Shown here one piece after another: positions 4,345 to 58,191 of a stretch of DNA of 64,000 bases. A program made the translations under genes and the position numbers. The notes under the pieces were generated by a model. The model was given only the letters and a program-made list of their open reading frames with translations. It made no database searches and was not told the DNA's origin. The DNA lies in NCBI GenBank assembly GCA_043797815.1, contig JAZDPG010000063.1, forward strand, positions 85,232 through 149,231. The letters are read 5' to 3'. The stretch is from Bacteroidota bacterium. Lineage in GTDB: Bacteria; Bacteroidota; Bacteroidia; Bacteroidales; GCA-2748055. Numbering within the stretch: position 1 is the first letter of the stretch; every line of letters begins with the position of its first letter.

Positions 4345-5859
4345 ATGAAAAAATGGATTACCATCCCAACAGGCCTGTTTATCGGGCTTTCAGTCATGGG
4401 CCAGACCTACCTGACCCACCAGAACGGTTTCAAATCAGCCTTCCTTCCATTCGAGTCCCCGGTGGTTTCCGCTATTGATGTGCACGAAAACCACATCTTC
4501 ATCAGCGACGGGGATACCATCCGGATGATGGATATGAATTCGGGTACCCTGCTGAAGAAATTTGAAAAACCAGAGGACGATACGGTCTCGGCCTACGCCA
4601 GTTTTTTGACTATCTCCTCTGACGGATCATCCATATGGGCCGGATATACCAGTGACTTCAATGTGGAAGACCGTATTTACCAGATTGATACAGAGAGTGG
4701 CGTATGGAACTTAAAGACTGTATTTCCTCAGAACTTCGACCTGGTTTTTTGGAATGACACCATCCTGGTTTCGGGAATCAACACCTCCTCCTGGGAAGAT
4801 CCCAATGGCATTTTCCTGCTTGATACCTCCGGGCAGAACATGCACAGGATGCTTATGGAAACCGGTGGATATTCAGCAGGGCTTGCCATCGATAAAACAG
4901 GAGCAGTATATTATGGCACTTCCTATATGATGAATCCCAATGGACTCTACCGGTGGGACAGCGCCCGGGTGGCCGGGGTGTTAAATCGAGAAGGCCCGGA
5001 CACACTGCATATTGCGGATGCAGAGAAACTTTCTGACCTGCCGGCCGGCGCCTATGATTGTGATGTGGATGTGGCCGGGAACTTGGTGTTGAACATGAAC
5101 CAGTTTGGTGGGAGGAAGGTGGTGGTCCAATGGAACGGAACCACCGGTGAAGGGATCCATCTGGATACCCTGGCCTTCACAGGCGGTGAGTGGGACTGGA
5201 TGGCACTTATCAAAACCGTGGGTGATATTAGCGCGCCTGAGCCTGGAAACAGTATCCTGACTTTTTCGTTCGGACAACCGCTTGTTGATATTCATGCTGC
5301 CGACTACCCTCCTTATGTGGCCAGTCCCATAGAGGATATCTCCTGCCCCTACCACGAACTGCAAGAAATTGATATATCCAGTGTTTTTTCAGATCCGGAT
5401 GACCCGGATTCCCTGATCACCAAAAAACTGCTCTCTCTCAGCAATAATTACCTTTTCGGTGTATCCGTTAACGGGAATTTGATATCCTTCGCCATGCCAA
5501 CTGGCAAGGGTAGCGTGGAAAGCACAGAAACAGATGTTGTGATAGAAGGCGAATCAGCCGGGATTACTGCAACCGACACTTTTCGGGTAACCATCGAAGT
5601 CGTGGGTGGGGTTGAGGATCATGATCAAACCACAACGGAAGTATACCCCAACCCTACCAATGGAATATTTCGAATCAAAGGGGAAATCTTCGAACCTTTT
5701 GATATCAGGATATACACACTCACCGGTGTTTTGGTAAGGGAGTTTCCGGAACGTCTGCCCGAGCAAGTCGTCGACATCTCGGGATTACCAGATGGCATAT
5801 ATCTTCTAAGCGTGGTTTGGAACGGAATGAACAGGAGTATACTGATCCATAAACAATAA
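4345..5859 (+). CDS. exported protein of unknown function with T9SS type A C-terminal sorting domain
   Basis: 504-aa ORF; signal peptide; repetitive beta-rich N-terminal region; C-terminus VYPNPTNGIFRIKG...ISGLPDGIYLLSV matches the Por/T9SS CTD pattern. Confidence 0.7.
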   Translation: MKKWITIPTGLFIGLSVMGQTYLTHQNGFKSAFLPFESPVVSAIDVHENHIFISDGDTIRMMDMNSGTLLKKFEKPEDDTVSAYASFLTISSDGSSIWAGYTSDFNVEDRIYQIDTESGVWNLKTVFPQNFDLVFWNDTILVSGINTSSWEDPNGIFLLDTSGQNMHRMLMETGGYSAGLAIDKTGAVYYGTSYMMNPNGLYRWDSARVAGVLNREGPDTLHIADAEKLSDLPAGAYDCDVDVAGNLVLNMNQFGGRKVVVQWNGTTGEGIHLDTLAFTGGEWDWMALIKTVGDISAPEPGNSILTFSFGQPLVDIHAADYPPYVASPIEDISCPYHELQEIDISSVFSDPDDPDSLITKKLLSLSNNYLFGVSVNGNLISFAMPTGKGSVESTETDVVIEGESAGITATDTFRVTIEVVGGVEDHDQTTTEVYPNPTNGIFRIKGEIFEPFDIRIYTLTGVLVREFPERLPEQVVDISGLPDGIYLLSVVWNGMNRSILIHKQ

Positions 5860-5867
5860 CAGTTCTC

Positions 5868-7283
5868 TTGAAAAAGACACTCTTATACATGTTACTGGCC
5901 CTGGGAAGCACTTCCCTGGCGGCACAGTACATTTCAGAGGTGGTTTCGTATTCACCGGCGCCCGGCCAGTTCATCAATAAAGCTCCCTGGGGCCTTCCGG
6001 AATCTGCAGCTTCCATCATTGGAGGGGTGAACGGGAGCCTTTGCCTGGGGGCATTTGGCGGAGAAGTGGTTTTTCGGTTTGATGGGCCGGTCGAGAATCA
6101 TCCGGACAATCCCTTCGGGGTGGATTTCACCATTTTTGGGAATCCCTTGCCCGATTGGTCAGAACCGGGTGTGGTCTGGGTCCTGAAAGATGAGAACGGG
6201 AACGGAGCACCCGATGATAGCTGGTATGAGCTGGCAGGTAGTGACTATTATTTTTCTTCCACCAGGAAAAATTATCAGGTAATTTATACGAACCCTGGCG
6301 ATACGGTTGCACGGGATGTTCCCTGGGAGGACCAGATGGGGAACACCGGGTTTATCAGGGCAAACAGCGCTCATGTACAGACCTATTATCCCTGTCTGGA
6401 TTTTTTTCCCGGCATCCCGGAAGGGCAGTATGCAGTGACCGGCTCCATGATCAGGGGAGCTGTGGATGTGGATCACCCGCCGCTTCTGAAATCTGCCAGG
6501 AGGGCGTTTGGGTACGCAGATAACCAAGCCCGGGGAAATCCCCCCTATACCATGCCGGACAATCCTTATACACCGGAACTTGAAAACGCCGGCGGAGATG
6601 CTTTTGATATCAGCTGGGCCGTGGATCCGGATGGAAAGCTTGTGGAGCTGGACATGATCCATTTTGTAAAGGTTGTGAATGCCGTTCTTCATGAAGGCGG
6701 ATGGCTGGGAGAGGTTTCTACGGAGATCACGGGTGCCGTGGATATACCTCCTGAACCCGGGATAGAAGGAGATCTTGAACTGGTGGTAATCAGGGATCTT
6801 CCGCCCGAGATTGGTACCACTTCTTACCAGATGGAGGTGTTTGCCTTCCACCGGGGCAGGCTTGAGTACAACCAGGGTGTACAATGGAGCTGTAATGCGG
6901 AGTGGGCCCAGATCGATGCGCAAAATGTACTTACTGTTTCGGGAACGGGTCCGTTGACGCTGACTGCATCTCTGGATTCTGATCCGGCAGTGAAGGCTTC
7001 GGTTTCTACCACCGTCAATTCCGGGGTTTCTTCTGCACTTGACGGCGCGTACAGATCTGCAAGGATAAGTATGTATCCAAATCCGGCAAAAGAAGAGATC
7101 CGGATCACCGGAACCGGGGAGGCAATCATCTCCTTTTACAATGCATCCGGCATGTGCATGAAACAGGTTCAGCCCGGTTCAGGGAACAATGCCATCCGGA
7201 TCGGGGAACTTCCCGGGGGTGTTTACATGGTGAGGATTGACAGGGGTAGTTCGGTTGAATGGATGAAACTTCTGAAGCAATAA
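5868..7283 (+). CDS. exported protein of unknown function with T9SS type A C-terminal sorting domain
   Basis: 471-aa ORF, TTG start (alternative ATG 5889); signal peptide LALGSTSLAAQ; C-terminus MYPNPAKEEIRITG...GELPGGVYMVRI T9SS CTD pattern; 8 nt after upstream gene. Confidence 0.7.
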   Translation: MKKTLLYMLLALGSTSLAAQYISEVVSYSPAPGQFINKAPWGLPESAASIIGGVNGSLCLGAFGGEVVFRFDGPVENHPDNPFGVDFTIFGNPLPDWSEPGVVWVLKDENGNGAPDDSWYELAGSDYYFSSTRKNYQVIYTNPGDTVARDVPWEDQMGNTGFIRANSAHVQTYYPCLDFFPGIPEGQYAVTGSMIRGAVDVDHPPLLKSARRAFGYADNQARGNPPYTMPDNPYTPELENAGGDAFDISWAVDPDGKLVELDMIHFVKVVNAVLHEGGWLGEVSTEITGAVDIPPEPGIEGDLELVVIRDLPPEIGTTSYQMEVFAFHRGRLEYNQGVQWSCNAEWAQIDAQNVLTVSGTGPLTLTASLDSDPAVKASVSTTVNSGVSSALDGAYRSARISMYPNPAKEEIRITGTGEAIISFYNASGMCMKQVQPGSGNNAIRIGELPGGVYMVRIDRGSSVEWMKLLKQ

Positions 7284-7284
7284 C

Positions 7285-13938: not shown

Positions 13939-14988
13939 ATGTCCCAAATAAACGAGAAGCTTATACGGCAGGTTTTTGAGGAGATGGTTAAAAGCAGGCC
14001 CGGTTTATCAAAGTACACAATGGTCGATGAGGATGAGGAGGAAGTAGATTACCGGATCCTGGCCGACCAGATCATAAAAAATTATCCCTGGCCCATCGGG
14101 ATTGAACTGAGAAGGCTATTCTCTGCAAGCATGAGGGAGCTGAATCGCCAGAGACTGGACCAGATCTTTAAAACCATTGAAAGGACCATGCAGTTTGTAT
14201 CCTTCGTGATGCTCTCCCAACTATGGCAAGATATACTTCAGAAGAAGATATCTATTCCTGAAAATGTGGCAAAAGAGTTAGAAAGCAGGTTGATGGTACT
14301 GAGTATGGGGAATTATGCATGGATGATCAGGGCCATTGGAAATCTCTACCAGGAGTCAGAGCATGATTGTTTTATGCCGGAGATGTCTGAACACCTGGAT
14401 AAGAAATTCTTTGCGGCACTGGATTTCTGGGTGCCGGAAAGAAATGAAATCGGTCATTACCAGATCAACCTGAACCAGGAGGAGATTGAGAAGCGCTGCG
14501 TGGAATATGAGGAGAAACTTACCTATATCCTGATCAAGATTGCATTCCTGGCAAAATACAGATTGGTTTCGGTCAGGGAGATCAGGGTGCAAAAACCTAA
14601 AAACAAAGAGGCCCGTTTCCATCATGTGGTGGACCTGCTGAACAGCTCCGATTCGGATTTTACAGCCAGGGAGATCGAAGAGGAGGCATTTTCTGAAAGC
14701 CATTCTGTCCTCCTGATGAAATCCATTAAATCCTTTGACGGATACCTGAATCTATCCCCTCTGATCATAGACACCCATTCGGAAGTATTGGATACCAAGG
14801 AAAAATTCGGAATCAAGAAAGATATTTTTATGTATACCAAATTCAGGGAGGATCACCTGATGTACCTGGGTACAGAAGTCACAGAGAAATGTGATCTGAG
14901 GAAAATGAGCAATTACATCCAGCTGGTTGATGAATTTAAACAGCTCCTTGCTTCCATATCCCCTGCCGAGGCAACTGTTGAGCCTTGA
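13939..14988 (+). CDS. hypothetical protein with HEPN-like RNxxxH motif (island gene A)
   Basis: ORF 13774-14988 trimmed to ATG 13939, because upstream codons only overlap the fucosidase 3-prime end; 349 aa, no signal or TM; helix-rich N-half; PERNEIGH at 14437-14457; 35 nt upstream of NTPase gene B. Confidence 0.6.
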   Translation: MSQINEKLIRQVFEEMVKSRPGLSKYTMVDEDEEEVDYRILADQIIKNYPWPIGIELRRLFSASMRELNRQRLDQIFKTIERTMQFVSFVMLSQLWQDILQKKISIPENVAKELESRLMVLSMGNYAWMIRAIGNLYQESEHDCFMPEMSEHLDKKFFAALDFWVPERNEIGHYQINLNQEEIEKRCVEYEEKLTYILIKIAFLAKYRLVSVREIRVQKPKNKEARFHHVVDLLNSSDSDFTAREIEEEAFSESHSVLLMKSIKSFDGYLNLSPLIIDTHSEVLDTKEKFGIKKDIFMYTKFREDHLMYLGTEVTEKCDLRKMSNYIQLVDEFKQLLASISPAEATVEP

Positions 14989-15023: not shown

Positions 15024-17813
15024 ATGAAATCCCCATTTAAATTCCTGGACGCTTACACCCATGAAGACCGGACCATCTTCTTTGGGCGGGACAGGGAGAT
15101 TGAGGAGTTGTACCAGAAGGTATTCGAAAGCAAGATTCTTCTGGTGTATGGAATTTCCGGAACGGGCAAGTCTTCCTTGATCAATTGTGGTTTGGCCAAC
15201 AAGTTCGAGGAGAGCGACTGGCTGCCCATCAGCATCCGTCGTGGGAAGGACATCAACCAAAGCCTGGAGTCCGAGATTCGCAAGGCATCCATCACTGAGC
15301 TGAAAGATGGCGTTTCCATCAGGAACGCCCTTCAGTCGGTATACCTGGATCATTTCAAACCTGTCTACCTGATCTTTGACCAGTTCGAGGAGTTGTTCAT
15401 CTTTGGAAAACGGCAGGAGAGGGATGATTTCATCCGGACCATTACAGAACTGATCCAATCTGATATCCATTGCAAATGCCTGTTTTCAATCCGGGAAGAG
15501 TACCTGGCGAACATGACCGAGTTTGAACAGGTGATCGATCATATTCTGGACAACCGGATCCGTGTGGAGAAAATGACCAGAGTCCATGCCGTTGATGTGA
15601 TTGAAGGTCCATGCAGGGTGCAGCAAATTGATCTCGAGGAGGGTTTTGCAGCGCGGTTGCTGGAAAAACTAAGCCCTGATTCCAATGAGATCGAGCTCAC
15701 ATTCCTGCAGGTATTCCTTGACCGGATTTTCAGAATGTCAGGCAAGGAAGGAGATGACCTGAAGTTCACCAATGAAATGATCGGAAAGGTTGGTGATGTA
15801 AGCAACCTGCTGGGTGATTTTCTCGAGGAACAGATCAGGGAATTGGAGGATCCGGATGCCGGAATGACCCTTTTGAAGGCTTTTGTATCGGTCAAAGGAA
15901 CAAAACGGCAGGTGGAAGATTCACAGATCCTGGATTCAGTCCGGGCCCTGGGGAAAAACATATCCCCTGAAGAGATCACTGTTCTGGTCCAGAAATTCAT
16001 TAAACTGCGGATTCTGAGAGACAAGGATGAGAATGGCAGGTATGAATTAAGGCACGATAGTCTGGCCGCCAAGATCTACGAGAATATAACGCTTGTTGAA
16101 AAGGAGCTGCTTGAGATCAGGCAATTCATTGAGAATGCCTTCGATGTATGGCAGAAACGCGGTATACTCCTCGATAAAGACGATCTTGATTACATCGCTC
16201 CCTATGAGAAGAAGCTGTTTTTAGAAGAAAAATCACAAGATTTTGTTGAAAAATGTAGAAGAAGCCTGGAGGTAAAAAAGAGATCATTTCGCAGGATCAT
16301 GGCCATCTCGGCAGCTGGATTTCTGCTGATACTTTCGGCCATAGCCATATACTCTTTCAGGTTTTCATTCAGTAGAAAGGCCGACCGGCTGGCCCAAATA
16401 TCTTCACTTCAACGTGAATTCTCCCTGCCTTTGAGTTACTATACGGCCAAAGCCGCTCTTGCGAAAGATCCCAAATCCTCATTTGCTGTAAAAGCGCTGT
16501 TTGATGCTTTTTATGGGTTGCTGGAGGGTGGTCCCTATTATGATTCAGCCGGCCATCTCCTGGATCCGCAAAAAACCATATTTGATTTTTCACCGGTGGG
16601 ATCAGAAATTGAAAATGCCGGTTTTTCGGAAGATGGGTCACTTATCTACGGAACCCTGGAGAACGGAACAGTCAAAATTTGGGACCGGCAGGGACATGAG
16701 TTGTTTTCAAAAGCCGATTCAACAGCTCAGGTTATCGATATGATCATCTCTCCTGACAACCAAACCATCGCCGTGGTATTCCGGGACAGTACTGCCACCT
16801 TCTGGGATCTATCGGGACGCTTTATTACCTCAGTAAGCCTGAGCTACGAACCGGTGAGCCCAAAAGATGCCGTCGCTTTCTCAAGGGATTCCAGAACCTT
16901 TGCCATCACCGGCAGGGAGAACCAGATCGCATTTTACAATGTAACTGGGGACTTTCTCTATGAGATGCATGGTCATTCGGAGGCAGTGACTGGATTGTCC
17001 TTTTCCCCTGATAGTCAGTACCTGGCATCTTCATCCAAAGACTCCTCAATCATGATCTGGAAATTGGATGATGATCTGGGAATGTTTACGGAGTTCAGAC
17101 GATTTGATAAGACATTCGGTGCCAGGGTATGGTCGGTTGATTTTGCACAGAACTCCAGATGGATCCTCTGTACATCAGAAACATTTTTCTATAAAAATGA
17201 AAAAGATACCTTTTGGGTTGTATTTTATGACGTCATAGATGTGGTGAACTTCAATGGATCGAGAAAATTTATTGTTATTGCCCGGACCTCCAGCACGGAG
17301 AAAGATCCCAGGTACCAGTCAAAACTGGTATATGGTGCTCGATTCACAGCCGATGATGCGGCAATTGTCTATCATACCATTGATTCCGTCGGGACGAACA
17401 ATGGTAACGAAATGATCTTATCATTGCCCCGGTACAGGCTGGAGTTTTCAAAAAACAGTCTTCGGTGGATGACCAATACAAACAGGAGCATTAGAAAGGA
17501 TAATATACTTGAAAATACAGATCCATATACTCTGAATGGAGCTGATTTTTCAGTTCAGGGTTTTGTGGCCTCCAGTATCACCAATTCAGCCACCACAAAC
17601 CTGTCACATTACGACGAAATACCGATCCGAAAATTCAAAGGGAACCACCCGGTATTTTCCAATGATGGCAATTATCTGCTCTGTATCAGTGAAAATAAAT
17701 TGTGCCTCTATCCGGCTTCAACAACACTAATTATGGATCTGGTGGATGGAAGAAAAATCTTTGGTGAGATAGAGGGAAACCTGAGTGACTGGCGCCACTA
17801 TGTAACTCAATAG
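15024..17813 (+). CDS. nSTAND-type P-loop NTPase - single TM - WD40 beta-propeller protein (island gene B)
   Basis: 929 aa; FFGRDREIEEL, Walker A GISGTGKS (15150-15173), Walker B YLIFDQFEELF; hydrophobic IMAISAAGFLLILSAIAIYSF (16297-16359) after KKRSFRR; WD40 repeats, e.g. HSEAVTGLSFSPDSQYLASSSKDSSIMIWKL. Confidence 0.85.
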   Translation: MKSPFKFLDAYTHEDRTIFFGRDREIEELYQKVFESKILLVYGISGTGKSSLINCGLANKFEESDWLPISIRRGKDINQSLESEIRKASITELKDGVSIRNALQSVYLDHFKPVYLIFDQFEELFIFGKRQERDDFIRTITELIQSDIHCKCLFSIREEYLANMTEFEQVIDHILDNRIRVEKMTRVHAVDVIEGPCRVQQIDLEEGFAARLLEKLSPDSNEIELTFLQVFLDRIFRMSGKEGDDLKFTNEMIGKVGDVSNLLGDFLEEQIRELEDPDAGMTLLKAFVSVKGTKRQVEDSQILDSVRALGKNISPEEITVLVQKFIKLRILRDKDENGRYELRHDSLAAKIYENITLVEKELLEIRQFIENAFDVWQKRGILLDKDDLDYIAPYEKKLFLEEKSQDFVEKCRRSLEVKKRSFRRIMAISAAGFLLILSAIAIYSFRFSFSRKADRLAQISSLQREFSLPLSYYTAKAALAKDPKSSFAVKALFDAFYGLLEGGPYYDSAGHLLDPQKTIFDFSPVGSEIENAGFSEDGSLIYGTLENGTVKIWDRQGHELFSKADSTAQVIDMIISPDNQTIAVVFRDSTATFWDLSGRFITSVSLSYEPVSPKDAVAFSRDSRTFAITGRENQIAFYNVTGDFLYEMHGHSEAVTGLSFSPDSQYLASSSKDSSIMIWKLDDDLGMFTEFRRFDKTFGARVWSVDFAQNSRWILCTSETFFYKNEKDTFWVVFYDVIDVVNFNGSRKFIVIARTSSTEKDPRYQSKLVYGARFTADDAAIVYHTIDSVGTNNGNEMILSLPRYRLEFSKNSLRWMTNTNRSIRKDNILENTDPYTLNGADFSVQGFVASSITNSATTNLSHYDEIPIRKFKGNHPVFSNDGNYLLCISENKLCLYPASTTLIMDLVDGRKIFGEIEGNLSDWRHYVTQ
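15033..16224 (+). repeat. diverged direct duplication, copy 1 (NTPase module of gene B)
   Basis: About 1.2 kb alignable to 18873-20055. By eye, roughly two thirds of the amino acids are identical and DNA identity is about three quarters in the first 250 nt. Confidence 0.75.
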
Positions 17814-17820: not shown

Positions 17821-18729
17821 TTATTTTAGCTTTCTGATATTGTATTCCTCCATCTGAAAGTGTGTTTCTGCTCCTGAATGACCCTTAAAAAAGATCTTTT
17901 TATAGGTGTCAGGTGGAAGAACAAACCTCATGGACATCATTGTAAAGAGGAACAGGGTGGGCAGGATGATGATCCTTATAAAATGTTTTTTTTGCATGAC
18001 CGGCCATTCCAGGTAATTTGAAAAAGGCATGGCTATCAGCAGGGAAAGGGCAGCTATTAAAAAAGCAACAATGACGATCAGATCGAATACCCCCAAAGTT
18101 TTCACTGTAAAACTTAGGTTTTGAAAAAACAGCGTTGTGGTGCATACACAAAGCAATAGACATAAAAGAAAGAAAAGTCTCTTCAAAAACAGTTGTTTCC
18201 GGAAATGAAAAAGTGATATGATTGCCTCTTTCAGAATACAGGCAGATAATAAAAAATAACCCATAAAAATCATATACATTGCTTCCGAATCAGCACCCAT
18301 CCGGTTCAGGACAAGGCCTGTGATAATTGCCGGAATAAGCCAGGAAATGATATGGGAGGTTTTGTCATGGTAGATGAACAGAAGCAATAAAACGATTCCC
18401 ACCACAAAAATTTCCCCGATCTCTTCAATGGTCCTTTTCAAGTCATTTAAGAAATCGGTTCTTGGTAATCGTATATAGGTGATAAACCAAAATATGATTC
18501 CTATACCATACAGGATAAAAAGCAGCGCCTTAAATCTTGAGGGGATCGAGGACGGCTTGATGATCAGCAAAACACCTAGAGCCAAAGCGATGGCAAAGGA
18601 TGTGATCCCCAGTACTGTTGATACTATATATGTATTGGTAAACCATGAGTGGGCATCTGCAACTATGGTGCCCAGAACGGCAGATATCAGCAGGATCCAT
18701 CTCCAGCGGTTGAGTTTATCCACTTGCAT
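17821..18729 (-). CDS. polytopic membrane protein of unknown function (island gene C)
   Basis: 302-aa ORF, about 8 hydrophobic segments, very AT-rich (hand count 33-47 percent GC per 60-nt line); convergent with B (7-nt gap), divergent from D. Confidence 0.65.
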   Translation of the reverse strand: MQVDKLNRWRWILLISAVLGTIVADAHSWFTNTYIVSTVLGITSFAIALALGVLLIIKPSSIPSRFKALLFILYGIGIIFWFITYIRLPRTDFLNDLKRTIEEIGEIFVVGIVLLLLFIYHDKTSHIISWLIPAIITGLVLNRMGADSEAMYMIFMGYFLLSACILKEAIISLFHFRKQLFLKRLFFLLCLLLCVCTTTLFFQNLSFTVKTLGVFDLIVIVAFLIAALSLLIAMPFSNYLEWPVMQKKHFIRIIILPTLFLFTMMSMRFVLPPDTYKKIFFKGHSGAETHFQMEEYNIRKLK

Positions 18730-18854: not shown

Positions 18855-21800
18855 ATGGCAACTGCTTTCAGTCCGTTTAAATTCCTGGATGCTTACACTC
18901 GTGAAGACAGGGAGATCTTCTTTGGGCGGGACCGTGAGATTGAGGACATATACCAGAAAGTATTTGAGAGCAAGATTCTGCTGGTATATGGGATTTCGGG
19001 AACAGGGAAGACTTCATTGATCAATTGCGGACTGGCCAATAAATTTGCTGAGAGTGACTGGTTGCCCATCAATATACGAAGAGGAAAAGACATTAATGAG
19101 AGCCTGATTTCGGAGATTAAAAAAGCCTCCATTACCGATTTGAAAAAGGGCCTGACCATTCTCAACACGATCCAGTCTGTATACCTGGACCATTTCAAAC
19201 CCATCTACCTCATTTTTGACCAGTTTGAAGAGTTATTCATTTTCGGGGAGCGGCAGGAAAGGGATGTTTTCATGCATACCATTGGCGAAATCGTGAAATC
19301 TGATCTTCAATGCAAATGCTTGTTTTCGATCCGGGAGGAATACCTGGCAGGAGTCACAGAATTCGAAAGTTCCATACCTGATTTTCTGGCCAACCGGATA
19401 CGAATTGAAAAAATGACACATCAGAATGCCAGAGAGGTGATCGAAGGTCCATGTGAAGTGAATGGAATCAAAGTCGGAGATGGATTTACAGATTCCTTAC
19501 TGCATAAACTGAATCCCAATTCCAACGAAATTGAGCTGACCTACCTGCAAGTTTTCCTGGATAAGATCTTCAAACTGTCAGGAGATCACAAAGAGTTTTC
19601 CCGGGCGCAGATAGAACAGGTAGGTGATGTGAGTGATCTGCTTGGGAGTTTCCTGGAAGAACAGATTGGAGAACTTGAAGATCCCGACACAGGCCTGGTT
19701 GTACTGAAGGCTTTTGTATCCACGCAGGGAACTAAAAAACAGATCGGCGAAGAAGAGATTCGTGATTTTGCAAATACGCTGGGCAAACCCCTGGAAAGCA
19801 AAAAGGTTACAGACCTGTTGGTACGGTTTGTGAATCTCCGGGTGTTGAAGGATAAAGATGATCACAACCAGTATGAGTTGAGGCATGACAGCCTTGCGGT
19901 TAAGATATATGAAAAAATCACTCTGGTTGAAAAGGAATTGCTTGAAATAAAGGACTTTCTGGACAATTCATTCAACAATTTTGAGCGCAGGGGCATTTAT
20001 CTGAATGAAGCGGACCTGAAATATATCGCTCCTTATGAGGACAAACTTTTTCTAAGCAAGAAGCTTCAGAGCCTTATTTCTGTAAGCAAAGGTGCCCTTG
20101 TGAAGGCTCAAAGAAGAAAAAGGAGGTTGATCGCTGTTGTGGCCATATGCATGATCGCTGTTTTGTCCTTTTTTACTGGTTGGGCCATACTGGAAAGGGG
20201 AAACGCAATTGATCAATCAAAACTGGCAGAAGCGCAGAGACAGGAAGCCATCGAAGCCGGGTTAGATGCTGAAAAATCTCGTGAAATCGCTGAAGAGAAC
20301 GAAAAAATAGCATTGCTCTCTAAAAAAGAAGCTGAGGAATCCAAAGAAGAAGCAATCCATGCCAGGGATATTGCGACTAAGGAATTGTATGAGAATATAA
20401 GATCCTCATTCACGATCTCCACAATAGCAATGAATGTCCTGTACAGAGGCCTTAATAATCCTATAAGTATCTCGGCATCAGGAATCAAAAAAGAGAATCT
20501 ATTGGTTTCAATTGATAATGGTAGCATCGATTTCGATGAAACGAAAAATAATGGGTATGCAAGACCAGGCGGTTCCCGGAAGGCCACAATCTCCTTAAGT
20601 GGAATTACAAATTTTGGGGATACCCTATATTTGGGGGCAATGGATTTCAGGGTATTAGACCTTCCGAAACCCACAGCAAGTATTGCAGGCCTGAAAGGTG
20701 GGGCAATATCTATGTCAGACCTGATTAATGCCAAGGGAGTTGATGCTGCTGCTGATGATTTTCTGTTTGAGGTTGACTTTGTTGTAACAGAATTCTCATT
20801 GGTAATTGTCTATGGGGGTATTTATTCTTCCCGGTTTTCGGATAGTAACAGGTTTACCCAGGAACAGATACAAATGTTAAGGTTATTTCGTCCAGGCCAA
20901 AAGCTAACAATTGATGATATAAAAGCCATTGGACCAGATGGCAGACTGCGTACATTGAATTCCATCACCTTTGAAATACTTGATTTGTCTGAACCAGAGA
21001 TCCAGGCACTAATAGAAGATCCCGAAGCAATTACAAATATTGAACAATTGATAGCAGTATTACAAAAGTTGGAAAATGAGGAGCGTTGGAGAAGATACTC
21101 AGAAATTGTATCCGATCATTATAAAATCCTGGAGAATGATTTTGAATCGCTGAATAGTGCCCTATGGAATATGTACCTGCATGGAGACAGATATTTCTTA
21201 TTCAGAGCACAGGAGGCAGCAATTGACCTGGTTCAAAAAAGTAATCGTAAACCGGACTACATTCATACCCTGGCAGCCTTAACCTATAAACTCGGGGAGA
21301 TAGAAAAAGCACTGGAACTGGAGAAGGAAGCCATAGTATTGGCTGATGAGAAAGGAGGAGATACTGAGCATTTTCAGACGCTTGTTGTTGAGATGAGTGA
21401 TCCTGAAAACCCGCAGAACTATTTATTTAGAGGTCTGAGAATGGAACGGGAGCCGGGATTAGACGAACAGGCAATGGAAATGTACAGGAAGGCAGTTATT
21501 ATTGATCCAGAGTATGCACCCGGGTGGTATCAACTGGGTAGTATGCATGATCGATTCAGTAATGATGAGGGATTCAGCAGGGACTCGGCCATGTACTTTT
21601 ACGCAAAAGCAATTGAATCTGATCCGGGATTTGAAGATGCGGTTATTTCCATGGTATACAAATATGATAGAAGCCAAACTGATGAGAAGATTGATTTATT
21701 GAATGGTTTTCTTGAAGTGGAGCCGTCGAGTAAAAGTGGATGGCGTTTAATACATCCGCTATATATTGAGGCACAAGAGCTGGAAAAATCATTGGATGCT

Positions 21801-22139
21801 GCCCGCAATTATCTGGAACTGGATTCAGTAAATGTATTTGGCTATACAATGCTCAGTGAATCATACATTTATCTTCAGGACTATGAAGCGTCCATTCATT
21901 CTGCCCGAAAGGGTTTAAGCCTGGGTACTGAAAATGGCAATGCAGAAGCATTTCTTGTAATCGCCTATGCTTTGAATGGAGAATTTGCAAAAAGCGACGC
22001 GATCATTCGGCTCAAAAAGTTTGACATTCAATCCAAACAACGACTCAGCATGAATTTAATTGAAATACTGGATGAATTGGAAAACAATCAAATCACCCAC
22101 CCCGATTTTGAGAAAATCCGTACGTTAATAAATGAATAA
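18855..22139 (+). CDS. nSTAND-type P-loop NTPase - single TM - coiled coil - GldM/PorM-like domain - TPR protein (island gene D)
   Basis: 1094 aa; same NTPase module as B (GISGTGKT, YLIFDQFEELF); TM LIAVVAICMIAVLSFFTGWAIL (20127-20192) after KAQRRKRR; E/K-rich coiled coil; NVLYRGLNNPISISASG...FRVLDLPKPTASI...IKAIGPDGRLRTL (about 20400-20985); TPR-like C-terminus. Confidence 0.85.
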   Translation: MATAFSPFKFLDAYTREDREIFFGRDREIEDIYQKVFESKILLVYGISGTGKTSLINCGLANKFAESDWLPINIRRGKDINESLISEIKKASITDLKKGLTILNTIQSVYLDHFKPIYLIFDQFEELFIFGERQERDVFMHTIGEIVKSDLQCKCLFSIREEYLAGVTEFESSIPDFLANRIRIEKMTHQNAREVIEGPCEVNGIKVGDGFTDSLLHKLNPNSNEIELTYLQVFLDKIFKLSGDHKEFSRAQIEQVGDVSDLLGSFLEEQIGELEDPDTGLVVLKAFVSTQGTKKQIGEEEIRDFANTLGKPLESKKVTDLLVRFVNLRVLKDKDDHNQYELRHDSLAVKIYEKITLVEKELLEIKDFLDNSFNNFERRGIYLNEADLKYIAPYEDKLFLSKKLQSLISVSKGALVKAQRRKRRLIAVVAICMIAVLSFFTGWAILERGNAIDQSKLAEAQRQEAIEAGLDAEKSREIAEENEKIALLSKKEAEESKEEAIHARDIATKELYENIRSSFTISTIAMNVLYRGLNNPISISASGIKKENLLVSIDNGSIDFDETKNNGYARPGGSRKATISLSGITNFGDTLYLGAMDFRVLDLPKPTASIAGLKGGAISMSDLINAKGVDAAADDFLFEVDFVVTEFSLVIVYGGIYSSRFSDSNRFTQEQIQMLRLFRPGQKLTIDDIKAIGPDGRLRTLNSITFEILDLSEPEIQALIEDPEAITNIEQLIAVLQKLENEERWRRYSEIVSDHYKILENDFESLNSALWNMYLHGDRYFLFRAQEAAIDLVQKSNRKPDYIHTLAALTYKLGEIEKALELEKEAIVLADEKGGDTEHFQTLVVEMSDPENPQNYLFRGLRMEREPGLDEQAMEMYRKAVIIDPEYAPGWYQLGSMHDRFSNDEGFSRDSAMYFYAKAIESDPGFEDAVISMVYKYDRSQTDEKIDLLNGFLEVEPSSKSGWRLIHPLYIEAQELEKSLDAARNYLELDSVNVFGYTMLSESYIYLQDYEASIHSARKGLSLGTENGNAEAFLVIAYALNGEFAKSDAIIRLKKFDIQSKQRLSMNLIEILDELENNQITHPDFEKIRTLINE
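18873..20055 (+). repeat. diverged direct duplication, copy 2 (NTPase module of gene D)
   Basis: Alignable to 15033-16224; similarity stops shortly before the TM segments, and the C-terminal regions are unrelated. Confidence 0.75.
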
Positions 22140-22148: not shown

Positions 22149-22211
22149 ATGAAATCTCCATTCAAAATGTTTGATTCATGCCCCAGGGTTGCCAGGAAGA
22201 TAATACTATGA
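22149..22211 (+). other. 20-codon mini-ORF, relic of an nSTAND NTPase 5-prime end; possible coupling uORF for the phosphatase gene
   Basis: atgaaatctccattcaaaatgtttgat (MKSPFKMFD) versus gene B start atgaaatccccatttaaattcctggac (MKSPFKFLD); stop TGA overlaps ATG 22208 as ATGA. Confidence 0.5.
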
Positions 22212-24103
22212 ATTCAGAGAATAATAGAACAGTCGCTCCAGGAAAATCAGGAGAGGATCCATTGATTGACATTGATTCACTGAATGAGGAATCGTGGAGT
22301 TTGAGGTATAAGGACCAGGTGGCATCGGAGACCAAAGCCATGACAGCTTTGAGCATGGCCCGGGAAATCAATTATTTCAGAGGGCAGGCTTATGCTTGCC
22401 TGAATCTGGCGGCTGGCCATTTCCTGAAATCTTCTAATAAGGATGCCCTTGAGTTGCTGGCTGATGCTCTCGGTTATTTCAATTCCCATACTGATGAACC
22501 GGGTTACGCTGCGGTCCTCAATTACACAGGCAACATTTATGAAAGTTTTGGAGATTATGAGACAGCCCTGGATTACTGTCTAAGAGCCTACAATACTGCT
22601 GTTCAAATCGGGAACAATGAGATGGTGGGGGAGGTGCAGAGCGTGCTTGGACTGATCTACAGCCGCATGTCGGATTATGACCGGGCGCTGAAGGCACATA
22701 AGGAGAGTCTGCGGATCAGGGAGGAGAAGGGGGACCAGATGGCTGCGGCTTCTTCCCTGAACCGGATCGCCAGGATCCATACCCTGACCAGGGAGTACGA
22801 TAAAGCACTGGAGTATTATAACAGGAGCCTGTCCATCAGGGAGAAGTTGGGGCAGAAAGGATTGCTGGCCTGGACTTACCTTGGATTGGCAAGTACGTAC
22901 GAAGCGATGGAAATGTATGAAGAAGCTAGAGATTATTATAGGAAAATGTTGAAAGGAGAACACCAATGCCTGGACGACCGTTGCAGGATGCAGGCCACTC
23001 TTGGACTGGGAAGAACCCTGCATAAGCTGAACCTTGAAGAAGAGGCTTTAAGTTGCTTTGAAAACTCCCTGGCACTTGCCATACAGCTGGAAGCAAAACC
23101 GCTGCAGGTGGAATCTCATTCTGCCCTGGCTGATTTTTATGAATCTTCAGGTCAGTTCGAAAAAGCCCTTTACCATTATAAGGCATACAGGAGTACCCGG
23201 GAAGCTGTCATGGATGATGAGACCCGCAACCGGTTGAAAAACCAACAGATCGCTTTTGCAGTTGAGAAGAGTGAAAAGGAAAAGGAGATTTTCCAGCTTC
23301 GAAATGTGGAGTTGAAATCGGCGTATGATGAGATCCACCACAAGAACAAAGAGATCACCGACAGCATCAATTACGCCAGCCGGATCCAGGGGGCCCTGTT
23401 GCCGCAGAATGCAAACCTGAAAGGGATGTTCCCGGATCACTTCATTATCTTCCTTCCAAAGGATATGGTGAGCGGAGATTTCTATTGGGCTACAGAGGTT
23501 GGAAAGCAAATGGTTTTTGCTGCGGCAGATTGCACAGGGCATGGCGTACCTGGCGCGCTCATGAGTATGCTGGGAATATCGTTTCTAAATGAGGTGGTGA
23601 TAGAACGCGGACAAACCAATCCAGGTGAGATTCTGGATAACCTCAGGGATGAGGTAATCAAAGCTCTGAAGCAAAGCGGTAAGGCAGATGAGCAGAAAGA
23701 TGGGATGGACATAGCTCTTTGCACCTACGATTCGGAATCAGGGGTTATCAAATTTGCTGGAGCATATAATCCCTTGTACCTTGTCAGGGAAGGATCTCTG
23801 GAAGAGTATAAAGCCGATAGAATGCCCATCAGTTATTACCATGGGGTTCAGGATTCATTTAAGACTACCTCAATCAAGGTACAAAAAGGGGACGCGCTTT
23901 ATCTGTTCTCGGACGGATTCGCTGACCAATTCGGAGGTCCACACCGGAAGAAATTCAAATACAAACCCCTGAAAGAGTTGCTGGAACTTATCCATGAAAA
24001 ATCCATGCAGAAACAGAAACTTGTCCTCTACGAGAAGTTTCTCGACTGGAAAGGGGTATACGACCAGATCGACGATGTGGTGATGATCGGGATCAGAATC
24101 TGA
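22208..24103 (+). CDS. TPR-repeat protein with C-terminal PP2C/SpoIIE-family serine phosphatase domain (island gene E)
   Basis: ORF 22178-24103; ATG 22208 preferred (ATGA overlap with mini-ORF); TPR repeats, coiled coil, then SGDFYW...AADCTGHGVPGALMSM...DGMDIAL...SDGFADQ phosphatase motifs. Confidence 0.85.
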   Translation: MNSENNRTVAPGKSGEDPLIDIDSLNEESWSLRYKDQVASETKAMTALSMAREINYFRGQAYACLNLAAGHFLKSSNKDALELLADALGYFNSHTDEPGYAAVLNYTGNIYESFGDYETALDYCLRAYNTAVQIGNNEMVGEVQSVLGLIYSRMSDYDRALKAHKESLRIREEKGDQMAAASSLNRIARIHTLTREYDKALEYYNRSLSIREKLGQKGLLAWTYLGLASTYEAMEMYEEARDYYRKMLKGEHQCLDDRCRMQATLGLGRTLHKLNLEEEALSCFENSLALAIQLEAKPLQVESHSALADFYESSGQFEKALYHYKAYRSTREAVMDDETRNRLKNQQIAFAVEKSEKEKEIFQLRNVELKSAYDEIHHKNKEITDSINYASRIQGALLPQNANLKGMFPDHFIIFLPKDMVSGDFYWATEVGKQMVFAAADCTGHGVPGALMSMLGISFLNEVVIERGQTNPGEILDNLRDEVIKALKQSGKADEQKDGMDIALCTYDSESGVIKFAGAYNPLYLVREGSLEEYKADRMPISYYHGVQDSFKTTSIKVQKGDALYLFSDGFADQFGGPHRKKFKYKPLKELLELIHEKSMQKQKLVLYEKFLDWKGVYDQIDDVVMIGIRI

Positions 24104-57273: not shown

Positions 57274-58191
57274 TTAACCCCGGGTAATTTCCCGGAATAC
57301 CTCTTCAAGGCTCATCTCTTTCAGCGAAAGAGACAGTATTATAAGGCCTTGATTTACAGCAAAATTAAAGATTTCACCTCTGATATCCCTGGCTTCACTG
57401 GTTTCCAGAAGGAATTGGTTCCCTTCCAGGGATCTGACATGGGTGATAAAACCGAGATTATTCCATAGTGCGGGATCAACAGAGGTGCTCAGTTCCACAT
57501 GAATGGTTTGGATCAGGCCGGCGCCTTTCTCTTTCAGGGAGGCCGATTGAGCGTCCGCCACTATCTTTCCCTGGTTGATAATAAGCACCCTGTCACAGAT
57601 GGCATCAACTTCCTGCATAATGTGGGTGGAAAGAAGAACAGTTTTCTCTTTTCCAATGGAGGAAATCAGGGACCGGATCTCCACCAGCTGGTTTGGATCA
57701 AGGCCAGTGGTAGGCTCGTCCAGGATAAGAATCCCGGGATCATGAATGAGGGCCTGGGCAAGACCAACCCGCTGCCTGAATCCTTTGGAGAGTTTCACAA
57801 TCTTCTTGTGGACTTCCGGGGTCAGGCCCGTCATGCGGATTACCTCTTCAATACGTTCTTTTCTTTCCCTGCCTTTTATTCCATAAAGACCGGCTGCATA
57901 GGCCAGGTACTCCCGGATATACATTTCCAGATAGAGCGGATTGTGCTCGGGCAGGTAGCCGATGATCTTCCGGATGTCTTTCTGGTTTTCAGATACACAT
58001 CGTCCATTAATCTCCACGCTTCCTGTATCGGGCCGCACTGTCCCGGTGATAATCTTCATGGTGGTGGATTTGCCTGCACCATTTGGTCCAATGAAACCAA
58101 CCACCTCTCCGGTGTGAACACTGAAAGAAACATGGTCAACCGCCAGTTGCGAACCGTATGCCTTTGTAATACCTTCTACAATGATTGACAT
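57274..58191 (-). CDS. gldA: gliding-motility-associated ABC transporter ATP-binding subunit GldA
   Basis: 305 aa; MSIIVEGITKAYG...GFIGPNGAGKSTTMKIITG...IGYLPEHNPLYLEMYIREYL closely resembles GldA as I remember it. Confidence 0.7.
   Translation of the reverse strand: MSIIVEGITKAYGSQLAVDHVSFSVHTGEVVGFIGPNGAGKSTTMKIITGTVRPDTGSVEINGRCVSENQKDIRKIIGYLPEHNPLYLEMYIREYLAYAAGLYGIKGRERKERIEEVIRMTGLTPEVHKKIVKLSKGFRQRVGLAQALIHDPGILILDEPTTGLDPNQLVEIRSLISSIGKEKTVLLSTHIMQEVDAICDRVLIINQGKIVADAQSASLKEKGAGLIQTIHVELSTSVDPALWNNLGFITHVRSLEGNQFLLETSEARDIRGEIFNFAVNQGLIILSLSLKEMSLEEVFREITRG

What the first reader, a model, noticed from the sequence alone, without database searches (positions are those of the whole stretch)
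18855..22139. Gene D: STAND NTPase fused, across the membrane, to a GldM/PorM-like T9SS motor domain and TPRs
Seen: after the NTPase module come KAQRRKRR, the TM LIAVVAICMIAVLSFFTGWAIL, an E/K/A-rich coiled coil, and then NVLYRGLNNPISISASG...FRVLDLPKPTASIAGL...FEVDFVVTEFSL...IKAIGPDGRLRTLNSITFEI. TPR-like repeats follow to the C-terminus. As I remember them, the periplasmic domains of the gliding/T9SS protein GldM (PorM) contain just this NVLY.G..NP.sis / frV...P.P.a.i / dG..r pattern. GldM is itself an N-terminally anchored periplasmic protein, which fits the predicted N-in topology. I do not know of a T9SS-motor-type domain attached to a STAND NTPase. It could let the switch dock on, or monitor, the T9SS or gliding machinery. 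That machinery is present in this organism (gldA, porP/sprF and T9SS cargo all lie in this window).
Basis: partly seen in the sequence, partly recalled or inferred. Interest (0 to 1): 0.65.

Follow-up and report, generated by a model that had tools for sequence, protein, structure and literature searches.

The report
Membrane-spanning STAND switch with GldM arm
Gene D encodes an NLR-like ATPase switch anchored in the inner membrane, whose periplasmic arm is copied from the ring-binding tip of the Bacteroidota secretion/gliding motor protein GldM; it belongs to a sizeable, undescribed family that may link the state of that machinery to a cytoplasmic response.

Summary
ORF 18855..22139 (+) encodes a 1094-aa protein with these parts:
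- nSTAND1 NTPase (aa 7-347)
- one N-in TM helix (425-446)
- a 69-aa charged helical linker
- GldM D3 (519-600) and D4 (604-708)
- a helical cap (713-850)
- TPRs running to the C-terminus

Three independent tests identify the GldM domains: Pfam hits above gathering cutoffs, direct sequence hits to PorM/GldM crystal structures, and an AlphaFold model (pLDDT 92) whose top seven PDB matches are all PorM/GldM D3-D4.

Gene D is not a GldM orthologue. It lacks GldM's TM motif, D1 and D2, and the gldKLMN context.

It belongs to a family of at least 61 protein clusters in uncultured Bacteroidales. The periplasmic arm of members ranges from a complete GldM D1-D4 to D3-D4, with or without a cap/TPR or a beta-propeller. 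Sister paralogs carry WD40 instead.

A highly conserved, unannotated 349-aa protein is encoded directly upstream of these NTPase genes (42 of 54 loci).

A BlaR1-type transducer has independently recruited the same D3-D4 module.

The function is inferred, not shown. Most likely this is a trans-envelope switch that docks at or senses the GldK/GldN ring. No publication describing the family was found. I classify it as a new variant of a known kind.

The parts
18855..22139 (+). Gene D, 1094 aa: nSTAND1 NTPase - TM - helical linker - GldM D3-D4 - cap - TPR
   Evidence: ORF. Domains. A 1024-aa ortholog with the same architecture lies in L016 (51% identity over 910 aa).
18873..20114 (+). Cytoplasmic STAND NTPase module (aa 7 to about 420). 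The Pfam nSTAND1 match covers aa 7-347. Walker A is at aa 46-53 and Walker B at aa 117-125. There is no N-terminal effector domain.
   Evidence: 134 bits; cutoff 27.1. (motifs). 64% identical to paralog C over aa 1-436.
20127..20192 (+). Single transmembrane helix (aa 425-446), predicted N-in
   Evidence: the only strong hydrophobic window; 7 K/R before it and 2 after.
20193..20399 (+). Periplasmic E/K/A-rich helical linker (aa 447-515, 69 aa). It may be a coiled coil or a single stable helix.
   Evidence: no Pro, 43% charged, weak heptad signal. (helical at its end in the model). The family has linker length classes of 22, 44-65, 72 and 93-103 aa.
20409..20654 (+). GldM/PorM domain D3 (aa 519-600)
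   Evidence: Pfam PF21602, 48.8 bits. PDB sequence and fold matches. 60% identical to the L016 ortholog.
20664..20978 (+). GldM/PorM domain D4 (aa 604-708). In PorM this is the domain that binds PorN.
   Evidence: Pfam PF12080, 67.5 bits.. Only 32% identical to the ortholog. PorN binding by D4: PMC5790014 and PMC12421860.
20991..21404 (+). Helical 'cap' module (aa 713-850), shared with 20 other fusion clusters
   Evidence: phmmer and BLAST clustering..
21405..22136 (+). TPR repeats (aa about 851-1094)
   Evidence: consensus TPR at E 5e-39; OGT TPR at 2e-11. (PEP_TPR_lipo at 7e-7). Individual Pfam TPR hits are below cutoff.
13939..14988 (+). Conserved 349-aa cytoplasmic partner protein with no known family. 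It is the most conserved component of these loci and a candidate effector or adaptor.
   Evidence: 65-83% identity across loci. Directly upstream of an nSTAND1 gene in 42 of 54 loci. No hit in Pfam, NCBIfam, PADLOC, PHROGs or PDB.
15024..17813 (+). Paralog C, 929 aa: nSTAND1 - TM - WD40 beta-propeller
   Evidence: GldM-type fusions sit next to such a paralog in 8 of 11 loci examined.
17821..18729 (-). 302-aa polytopic membrane protein with no known family. It is present together with gene D and absent from the closest relative's locus.
   Evidence: Weak homologs in L005 (26%) and L008. Absent in L012.
22178..24103 (+). TPR + SpoIIE/PP2C phosphatase, 39 nt downstream of gene D. This is a possible output partner.
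   Evidence: Homologs in L005 (49%), L007 (37%) and L012. Present in 14 of 54 partner-gene loci.

Best explanation
Gene D is a trans-envelope STAND (NLR-like) switch.

Shown:
- A cytoplasmic nSTAND1 NTPase with intact Walker motifs and no effector domain of its own.
- A single N-in TM helix tethering it to a periplasmic arm. The arm is a 69-aa helical linker, the two distal Ig-like domains (D3-D4) of the T9SS/gliding motor protein GldM/PorM, a helical cap and TPRs.
- Membership of a family in which this arm ranges from a complete GldM D1-D4 to D3-D4 alone.
- A conserved 349-aa cytoplasmic protein encoded directly upstream of these NTPase genes.

Inferred:
- The GldM-derived arm reaches the GldK/GldN ring or track under the outer membrane, as GldM's own tip does. 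In PorM, D4 is the PorN-binding domain.
- The fast-evolving D4-cap-TPR end binds the ring or a ligand located there.
- Occupancy or clustering of the arm is passed through the membrane helix and drives NTP-dependent oligomerisation of the NTPase.
- The NTPase then acts through the conserved 349-aa partner, and possibly through the adjacent TPR-PP2C phosphatase.

In short, it reports the state of the secretion/gliding apparatus, or something bound to it, to the cytoplasm.
For: Architecture and homology.

Family recurrence:
- 28 further 50%-identity cluster representatives in the top 150 hits.
- Pfam on the 29 aligned members: nSTAND1 in 29, GldM_3rd in 27, GldM_4th in 19.
- 61 fusion clusters in hand.

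Graded GldM content:
- P0011 has GldM_1st, 2nd, 3rd and 4th after the NTPase and TM helix.
- P0011 and P0255 pass the curated GldM equivalog cutoff on model positions 35-522 of 524. That is all of GldM except its own TM helix.
- In 24 of 61 fusions D4 is C-terminal, as in GldM.

Published function of the module: D4 is sufficient to bind PorN, the D3-D4 junction is rigid, and D3 takes part in the dimer (PMC5790014). A PorM S460-PorN A241 crosslink is reported in PMC12421860.

Independent recruitment of the same module as the extracytoplasmic sensor of a BlaI/BlaR1-type pair.

Sensor-slot logic: paralogs share the NTPase and TM helix (64% identity) and differ only beyond the membrane, with WD40 in one and the GldM arm in the other.

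Distal domains diverge fastest between orthologs: D3 60%, D4 32%, cap 32%, TPR 18%, against 67% for the NTPase.

Conserved operon partner.

The organism has T9SS/gliding genes.
Against: - No interaction, localisation or phenotype data exist, and all source organisms are uncultured MAGs.
- In gene D, D4 is not terminal. The cap and TPRs follow it and could mask the PorN-binding face.
- In 37 of 61 family members something (cap/TPR or a beta-propeller) lies beyond D4, which also fits a mere stalk role.
- Linker lengths vary from 22 to 103 aa, so the arm does not sit at one fixed height.
- The one mapped PorN-contact position (PorM S460) aligns to Gly in gene D, though this loop is expected to co-vary with the partner.
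- The output is unknown. The 349-aa partner has no recognisable fold or family, and TPR-SpoIIE accompanies only 14 of 54 loci.
- The closest relative genome lacks gene D at the same locus, so it is dispensable there.
Confidence: 0.4

Rival explanations
1. Stalk only. D3-D4 was co-opted simply as a rigid, dimerising periplasmic spacer, like GldM's own shaft. It holds the true sensor (TPR here, a beta-propeller in other members) at a distance from the inner membrane. There is no contact with the T9SS or gliding machinery.
For: 37 of 61 fusions carry a cap/TPR or propeller beyond D4. D3 is well conserved between orthologs (60%) while the distal parts diverge. The D3-D4 junction is rigid and D3 contributes to the dimer in GldM/PorM. 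WD40 paralogs work without any GldM part.
Against: 24 of 61 members end at D4, so the module itself is the tip there. About ten clusters keep a complete GldM D1-D4 arm that still passes the GldM equivalog cutoff. A BlaR1-type transducer uses D3-D4 alone as its sensor. The module has so far been seen only in GldM proteins and these fusions in T9SS-bearing Bacteroidota. The next-best structural matches are generic Ig/FN3 tandems at TM below 0.45.
Confidence: 0.28
2. Integrated decoy or guard in an immune (conflict) system. The GldM-like arm is bait that mimics the exposed tip of the host's motor stalk. A phage or competitor protein that targets the T9SS/gliding apparatus binds the bait. That triggers STAND oligomerisation and a toxic or abortive response through the 349-aa partner. 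The adjacent WD40 paralog acts as a helper, as in plant paired NLR-ID receptors.
For: nSTAND1 was defined in conflict systems (PMC8195603). There are arrays of paralogs with swapped sensors: WD40, GldM arm, FGE, ABC2. Fusion D3-D4 modules are more divergent from each other (median 26%) than true GldMs are (32%). Gene D is accessory relative to the closest genome. Some loci lie beside integrases, Y1 transposases, AAA_14-DUF4143, RhuM and an NS endonuclease. The GldM fusion is adjacent to an nSTAND1 paralog in 8 of 11 loci. The partner has an invariant R-x4-H block.
Against: No PADLOC defence model matches any component above noise. There is no N-terminal effector or EAD. The partner's HEPN-like motif is untested, and no profile, PDB or structural support was obtained. 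The window locus lies among housekeeping genes: fucosidase and TldD/PmbA. The partner is 65-83% identical across species, which is unusually conserved for a conflict effector. It has no relatives in the phage or plasmid collections.
Confidence: 0.14
3. Inside-out brake. The nucleotide state of the cytoplasmic NTPase controls oligomerisation of the GldM-like arms. These compete with genuine GldM for GldN sites and so throttle secretion or gliding in response to a cytoplasmic cue.
For: The arm carries the PorN-binding domain. Full-arm members lack only GldM's motor-coupling TM helix, which is what a non-driving competitor would look like.
Against: STAND NTPases characterised so far signal from sensor to NOD, not the reverse. 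This model does not explain WD40, TPR or propeller sensor paralogs sharing the same NTPase and TM helix. No cytoplasmic input domain is present.
Confidence: 0.08
4. Gene D is a genuine second GldM/PorM that works as a motor subunit with GldL.
For: D3-D4 homology. Some databases name family members 'GldM'.
Against: The GldM equivalog score is 92 against a cutoff of 180, and only model positions 317-524 match. Gene D has no D1 or D2. Its TM helix belongs to the nSTAND1-TM family and lacks the conserved GldM N-terminal PRQKMI..MYLVLTAMLALNV consensus seen in true GldMs. It is not in a gldKLMN operon, and the window holds no other GldM-like ORF.
Confidence: 0.02

Closest known systems
GldM/PorM, the periplasmic stalk of the T9SS/gliding motor (PDB 6EY4, 6EY5, 6EY6, 7CMG; TIGR03517)
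   Same: Both are N-in single-pass inner-membrane proteins with a long periplasmic arm. D3 and D4 are homologous at about 30% identity to PorM and 43-45% to one clade of true GldMs, with TM-scores of 0.67-0.79. Some family members retain the whole D1-D4 arm.
   Different: Gene D has no D1 or D2 and lacks GldM's conserved TM motif that couples to GldL. It carries a 420-aa cytoplasmic STAND NTPase in place of GldM's short N-terminus. It has an extra cap and TPRs after D4, lies outside the gldKLMN operon, and scores below the equivalog cutoff.
nSTAND1 STAND NTPases of prokaryotic conflict systems (Pfam PF20703; Kaur, Iyer, Burroughs and Aravind 2021, PMC8195603)
   Same: The same NTPase clade. 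A variable C-terminal 'sensor' slot is filled by WD40, TPR or FGE domains in paralogs. Several paralogs occur per locus or genome.
   Different: A TM helix places the sensor in the periplasm. There is no N-terminal effector or effector-associated domain. A separate, highly conserved 349-aa partner gene is present. The sensor is borrowed from a host secretion machine. None of these features was mentioned in the papers searched.
Antiviral STAND/NLR-like proteins (Avs, bNACHT; PMC13581612)
   Same: The tripartite logic of sensor plus NOD plus output. TPR, WD40 and FGE sensors occur in that superfamily.
   Different: Those sensors are cytosolic and recognise phage proteins inside the cell, and the effectors are fused N-terminally. 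No PADLOC or NCBIfam defence model matches gene D.
Plant paired NLRs with integrated domains (NLR-ID, e.g. RGA5/RGA4, RRS1/RPS4); an analogy drawn from general knowledge
   Same: A domain copied from a host target protein is inserted in the receptor. The gene is adjacent to a paralogous NLR lacking it.
   Different: The kingdom and NOD clade differ. There is no evidence here that the GldM module is a decoy or that the paralogs co-operate.
BlaR1/MecR1-type M56 signal transducers with a BlaI repressor
   Same: Membrane transducers with an interchangeable extracytoplasmic sensor. One member (P0156, L009) carries GldM D3-D4 in that slot.
   Different: The output is a zinc protease cleaving a repressor, not an NTPase switch. 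The cytoplasmic parts are not homologous.

Membership tests
nSTAND1 STAND NTPase (PF20703) | Profile match above the curated threshold | tested here: met
   134.4 bits against 27.1, aa 7-347
nSTAND1 STAND NTPase (PF20703) | Intact P-loop (Walker A) and Walker B | tested here: met
   GISGTGKT at aa 46; IYLIFDQFE at aa 117
nSTAND1 STAND NTPase (PF20703) | Variable C-terminal ligand-sensing region (repeats or other domains) | tested here: met
   GldM D3-D4 plus cap and TPR in gene D. WD40 in paralog C after an NTPase and TM helix 64% identical.
nSTAND1 STAND NTPase (PF20703) | N-terminal effector or effector-associated domain, as in the described conflict systems | tested here: not met
   The NTPase model starts at aa 7, with nothing upstream of it.
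nSTAND1 STAND NTPase (PF20703) | Ligand-triggered, NTP-dependent oligomerisation | not testable with these tools
   Needs biochemistry.
GldM/PorM T9SS motor protein (TIGR03517 equivalog) | Equivalog model score at or above the cutoff | tested here: not met
   92.4 bits against 180; only model positions 317-524 match. Family members P0011 and P0255 do pass (187 and 182 bits) on positions 35-522.
GldM/PorM T9SS motor protein (TIGR03517 equivalog) | N-terminal TM helix with the conserved GldM motif that sits inside the GldL ring | tested here: not met
   True GldMs share the consensus PRQKMI..MYLVLTAMLALNV. Gene D's helix is LIAVVAICMIAVLSFFTGWAIL, shared with the nSTAND1-TM family.
GldM/PorM T9SS motor protein (TIGR03517 equivalog) | Helical D1 and Ig-like D2 | tested here: not met
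   No GldM_1st or GldM_2nd hit in gene D. A 69-aa helix takes their place.
GldM/PorM T9SS motor protein (TIGR03517 equivalog) | D3 and D4 domains | tested here: met
   Pfam, PDB sequences, structure
GldM/PorM T9SS motor protein (TIGR03517 equivalog) | Encoded in a gldK-gldL-gldM-gldN operon | tested here: not met
   The neighbours are paralog C, a TM protein and TPR-SpoIIE. Compare L001, where a true GldM lies in porP-gldKLMN.
GldM/PorM T9SS motor protein (TIGR03517 equivalog) | D4 binds GldN/PorN | not testable with these tools
   The genome's gldN is outside the window, and no multimer prediction was available.
Known anti-phage STAND systems (Avs, bNACHT and others in PADLOC) | Match to a defence-system model | tested here: not met
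   Only P-loop-level noise for gene D. Avs4 at E 0.0018 for paralog C, far below cutoff.
Known anti-phage STAND systems (Avs, bNACHT and others in PADLOC) | Defence-island or mobile context | tested here: inconclusive
   Present in L003/L004 and L008 (integrase, Y1_Tnp, RhuM, endonuclease). The context is housekeeping in the window and in L012.
HEPN RNase (candidate identity of the 349-aa partner) | Rx4-6H motif within an all-alpha HEPN fold | tested here: inconclusive
   An invariant R168-x4-H173 is present. There was no profile hit and the model was unusable (pLDDT 34.5).

The most novel reading that the evidence does not exclude
The family is a trans-envelope, NLR-like surveillance system. 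Its periplasmic receptor arm is an integrated copy of the host's own T9SS/gliding motor tip. It guards or mimics the GldM-GldN interface so that an invader or a perturbation acting on that machine in the periplasm triggers a cytoplasmic STAND oligomer. That oligomer then activates the conserved 349-aa partner as effector, with the adjacent WD40 paralog acting as co-receptor or helper. This would be a bacterial counterpart of plant integrated-decoy NLR pairs, and the first STAND receptor shown to sense across a membrane.
Probability: 0.15. Interest if true: 0.88.

Novelty: new variant of a known kind. Interest (0 to 1): 0.66.

Why it matters
STAND/NLR switches are understood as cytosolic receptors. 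A family that places the sensor across the inner membrane, and builds it from the ring-binding tip of the T9SS/gliding motor, would extend that paradigm.

It would also give the T9SS field a new class of proteins predicted to touch the GldK/GldN ring. This comes at a time when the role of that ring as a moving track is being worked out (PMC12635249, PMC12421860).

The graded series of arms, from the full D1-D4 down to D3-D4, is a natural experiment on which parts of GldM are needed to reach or bind the ring.

The very conserved, fold-unknown 349-aa partner is a concrete new target for structure and function work. The independent BlaR1-GldM fusion suggests that sensing T9SS status is a recurrent need in Bacteroidota.

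Tried and rejected
Searches and tools that led nowhere:
- A genome-contig scan with gene D alone found nothing.
- The exact protein is not on record in the contig index.
- The word-indexed search with the TM-to-D4 profile returned true GldMs rather than fusions. The full-length profile was needed.
- The sigma-70 promoter and terminator scan was uninformative. Counts equalled those of the shuffles, and Bacteroidota promoters are not covered.
- The literature searches found no description of GldM-STAND fusions.

The 349-aa partner:
- It has no hit in Pfam (even at E up to 10 across six members), NCBIfam, PADLOC, PHROGs, PDB sequences or a PDB profile search.
- The single-sequence model failed at pLDDT 34.5, so the HEPN idea stays untested.

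Ideas rejected:
- Recent gene conversion between gene D and paralog C. DNA identity is 65%, third codon positions 44%, and the longest identical run is 18 nt.
- A phage-encoded GldM-like module. The only 'phage' hit, MT839621.1, is an unverified bacterial porP-K-L-M-N fragment.
- The 370-aa ORF that occupies gene D's position in the closest relative being a remnant of gene D. It shows no similarity.

Left inconclusive:
- Gene D's D3-D4 groups with one clade of true GldMs rather than with other fusions, but only in 115 of 200 bootstraps. This is suggestive only.
- The FGE paralog P0035 as a GldK mimic. GldK is its best hit, but at 113 bits against 93 for PvdO and a cutoff of 350.

Full report
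**1. Checking the observation**

The ORF 18855..22139 (+) exists as stated and encodes 1094 aa. Every quoted motif is present.

There is one strong hydrophobic segment, aa 425-446. It has seven K/R in the 15 residues before it and two after, so the N-terminus is predicted to be cytoplasmic.

Pfam places nSTAND1 at aa 7-347 with 134 bits against a cutoff of 27. Walker A (GISGTGKT, aa 46) and Walker B (IYLIFDQFE, aa 117) are intact.

I tested this three ways, and each test found a significant match.
- Pfam: GldM_3rd (aa 519-600, 48.8 bits, cutoff 25.2) and GldM_4th (aa 604-708, 67.5 bits, cutoff 24.6).
- Sequence against solved structures: phmmer hits PorM 6EY5, 6EY6 and 7CMG at E about 1e-18 and GldM 6EY4 at 1e-11, aligned to their D3-D4.
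- Structure: an AlphaFold model of aa 502-720 with a 68-sequence alignment has pLDDT 92.3. Its seven best PDB matches are all PorM/GldM D3-D4 (E 2e-18 to 5e-14, TM 0.67-0.79, about 30% identity). The next match is a generic Ig-FN3 tandem at E 3e-6 and TM 0.39.

The C-terminal 382 aa match consensus TPR proteins (E 5e-39) and the OGT TPR region (2e-11).

The statement that the organism has the machinery also holds. gldA is at 57274..58191 (-) and a PorP/SprF gene at 63049..63945 (-), both above NCBIfam cutoffs. Two cargo genes with the T9SS C-terminal sorting domain lie at 4345..7283.

One part is not established. The 69-aa E/K/A-rich segment is called a coiled coil. It is Pro-free and 43% charged, but only 11 of 20 a/d positions are hydrophobic in the best heptad register. 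It could be a single stable helix.

**2. What gene D is not**

Gene D is not a GldM orthologue.
- The NCBIfam GldM equivalog model scores 92 bits against a cutoff of 180 and matches only model positions 317-524.
- There is no D1 or D2.
- True GldMs share an N-terminal consensus, PRQKMI..MYLVLTAMLALNV. Gene D's membrane helix lacks it and instead belongs to the NTPase family.
- The gene is not in a gldKLMN operon, and no other GldM-like ORF lies in the window.

The closest word-indexed relatives of the D3-D4 segment are genuine GldMs at 43% identity. One of them sits in a porP-gldK-gldL-gldM-gldN operon.

**3. The paralog and the family**

The upstream gene at 15024..17813 is 64% identical to gene D over aa 1-436, that is, through the NTPase and into the TM helix. 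Beyond the membrane the two are unrelated: it has a WD40 propeller where gene D has the GldM arm. So the GldM arm occupies the sensor slot of a membrane-spanning STAND.

The two genes are old duplicates rather than recent gene-conversion products. DNA identity is 65% and third codon positions are 44% identical.

An exhaustive HMMER search of 1.8 billion cluster representatives found 28,037 relatives of the whole protein. Among the best 150, 28 others carry D3-D4 after the NTPase and TM helix. Pfam confirmed this on the 29 aligned members: nSTAND1 in 29, GldM_3rd in 27 and GldM_4th in 19.

A profile search added more members, and 61 fusion clusters are now in hand. Named sources are all uncultured Bacteroidales, Bacteroidia or Rikenellaceae MAGs. 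A few are already auto-annotated as 'GldM family protein'.

The arm forms a graded series.
- About ten clusters carry a full GldM D1-D2-D3-D4 (for P0011).
- Two of these, P0011 and P0255, pass the curated GldM equivalog cutoff on model positions 35-522 of 524. That is all of GldM except its own TM helix.
- P0014 has D1-D3-D4.
- The rest have a helical linker and then D3-D4. Linker lengths fall into classes of 22, 44-65, 72 and 93-103 aa.

After D4, 24 clusters stop, as GldM does. Another 21 have a helical cap of about 136 aa homologous to gene D aa 713-850, and six of these, including gene D, add TPRs. A further 13 have a 400-480-aa propeller-like domain.

A 1024-aa ortholog with gene D's exact layout lies in the MAG 'Bacteroides sp. 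SM23_62_1', at 51% identity over 910 aa. Identity between the two orthologs falls from the inside outwards: NTPase 67%, linker 58%, D3 60%, D4 32%, cap 32%, TPR 18%.

**4. Genomic context**

Five further fusion loci were read.

The most conserved neighbour is a 349-aa protein with no known family, at window 13939..14988. It is 65-71% identical in those loci, which is more than the NTPases (52-62%) or the D3-D4 modules (31-36%).

Used as a probe, it was found at 161 places in species-representative genomes. Of the 54 loci with enough downstream sequence:
- 47 have an nSTAND1-type NTPase.
- In 42 the NTPase gene starts within 800 nt downstream on the same strand.
- Five carry a GldM-type arm.
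- Fourteen carry a TPR-SpoIIE phosphatase like the one 39 nt downstream of gene D.

GldM-type fusions sit beside another nSTAND1 paralog in 8 of 11 loci.

The closest relative genome has the partner at 83% identity, on the same contig as the most similar true GldM. It has the same backbone: fucosidase, partner, nSTAND1-WD40, then TPR-SpoIIE. It lacks gene D and the adjacent 302-aa membrane protein. Gene D is therefore an accessory addition to a conserved locus.

Some loci lie among integrase, transposase, RhuM, endonuclease and AAA_14-DUF4143 genes. The window locus does not.

**5. An independent recruitment**

A BlaI repressor gene is followed by a BlaR1-type M56 transducer whose extracytoplasmic part is GldM D3-D4. 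Stand-alone D3-D4 proteins of 218 aa also exist next to PorP/SprF genes. The module therefore behaves as a portable periplasmic unit that has been attached to two unrelated membrane signalling chassis.

**6. Mechanism**

Published work shows the following.
- The GldM/PorM dimer is a rod of about 180 A.
- D3 contributes a swapped strand.
- The D3-D4 junction is rigid.
- D4 alone binds PorN (PMC5790014).
- PorM S460 crosslinks to PorN A241 (PMC12421860).
- The PorK/N (GldK/N) assembly is now viewed as a moving track (PMC12635249).

My best explanation (confidence 0.40) is a trans-envelope STAND switch. Its GldM-derived arm reaches that ring or track. Its fast-evolving D4-cap-TPR end binds the ring or something located there. 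Occupancy or clustering of the arm then drives oligomerisation of the cytoplasmic NTPase, which signals through the conserved partner and perhaps the PP2C phosphatase.

Only the architecture, the predicted topology, the homology, the family recurrence and the operon conservation are shown. Binding, the direction of signalling and the output are inferred.

The main rival (0.28) is that D3-D4 is merely a rigid dimeric stalk for the distal sensor. That fits the 37 of 61 members with something beyond D4. It fits poorly with the 24 D4-terminal members, the full-arm members and the BlaR1 fusion.

An integrated-decoy immune reading (0.14) fits the paralog arrays, the divergent sensors, the accessory status of gene D and the origin of nSTAND1 in conflict systems (PMC8195603). 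It lacks any defence-model match and any identified effector.

An inside-out brake (0.08) and a true second GldM (0.02) are less likely.

**7. The partner protein**

An invariant block, DFWVPERNExGH, has an R-x4-H spacing that recalls the HEPN RNase motif (the resemblance is from my own knowledge). No profile or PDB match supports this. It remains a lead only.

**8. Novelty and scoring**

The NTPase clade and the idea of swappable sensors are known. I did not find the following in any paper searched:
- a sensor placed across the membrane
- a sensor derived from the T9SS motor protein
- the graded GldM arms
- the conserved partner gene

The proteins themselves are in public databases. I classify this as a new variant of a known kind, with interest 0.66.

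Noticed in passing
window 13939..14988 (+): A 349-aa protein with no family in any library searched. It is 65-83% identical across 161 places in Bacteroidales MAG genomes and lies directly upstream of an nSTAND1-TM gene in 42 of 54 loci. It has an invariant DFWVPERNExGH block with R-x4-H spacing. The ORF list starts it at a GTG at 13774, but homologs align from the ATG at 13939.
   Followed up: partly
window 15024..17813 (+): Paralog of gene D: nSTAND1 - TM - WD40 propeller, with the propeller predicted to be periplasmic. It is the commonest architecture in this NTPase family.
   Followed up: partly
window 17821..18729 (-): A 302-aa polytopic membrane protein with no family. It lies between the two NTPase genes. 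Weak homologs lie beside fusions in L005 and L008. It is absent, together with gene D, from the closest relative's locus (L012).
   Followed up: partly
window 22178..24103 (+): A TPR + SpoIIE/PP2C phosphatase 39 nt downstream of gene D. Homologs follow the NTPase genes in L005, L007 and L012, and occur in 14 of 54 partner-gene loci.
   Followed up: partly
L009 1730-3672: A BlaI-type repressor gene followed by an M56/BlaR1 transducer whose extracytoplasmic domain is GldM D3-D4. This is a second signalling chassis that has recruited the same module.
   Followed up: partly
L010 3148-3804; L011 2806-3462: A stand-alone 218-aa protein made only of GldM D3-D4 (NCBI name 'GldM family protein'), next to a PorP/SprF gene.
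   Followed up: no
L004 1-1968 (protein P0035): nSTAND1 fused to an FGE-sulfatase domain, in the same array as a GldM fusion. Its best NCBIfam hit is GldK/PorK (113 bits; cutoff 350), only slightly ahead of generic FGE-family enzymes. It may be a second T9SS-derived sensor, but this is unresolved.
   Followed up: partly
L008 6211-8808 and 20544-21002 (-): An nSTAND1 fused to an ABC2_membrane domain. A 152-aa protein with a faint GldL_N hit lies at the end of the same array.
   Followed up: no
L092 (MT839621.1) 5007-9675: A GenBank record labelled 'UNVERIFIED: Bacteriophage sp.' is a bacterial porP-porK-porL-porM-porN fragment.
   Followed up: yes
L001 5411-5932 and 6001-6945: The genuine gldM of the closest relative MAG is called as two ORFs (D1; D2-D4). 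This may be a frameshift or an assembly error.
   Followed up: no
L003/L004 9371-9823; L005 9157-9609: A Y1 (REP-associated-type) transposase gene is inserted just upstream of the GldM fusion gene in three loci, between the preceding Pfam-less ORF and the fusion. In L005 that preceding ORF is the conserved 349-aa partner. In L003/L004 it is a 327/420-aa ORF that showed no similarity to the partner.
   Followed up: no
L004 6687-7895; L006 13099-14310; L008 12644-13870; L016 14725-15951: An AAA_14 + DUF4143 ATPase gene of about 405 aa recurs inside or beside the nSTAND1 arrays in four loci.
   Followed up: no
window 20175..20210 (gene D aa 441-452) and alignment A2: A juxtamembrane motif F-T-x-W-A-L-x-E-R at the periplasmic end of the TM helix is nearly invariant in GldM-type fusions. 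It is absent from WD40 paralog C.
   Followed up: no
L032, L033, L042, L059 (OY970346.1): One complete 3.5-Mb Bacteroidales MAG chromosome carries at least four dispersed copies of the partner gene, so the system is multi-copy within a genome.
   Followed up: no
L065 (JBLNAO010000168.1): A contig binned as Chloroflexota carries the partner gene at 67% identity to the Bacteroidales versions. This is probably a mis-binned contig.
   Followed up: no
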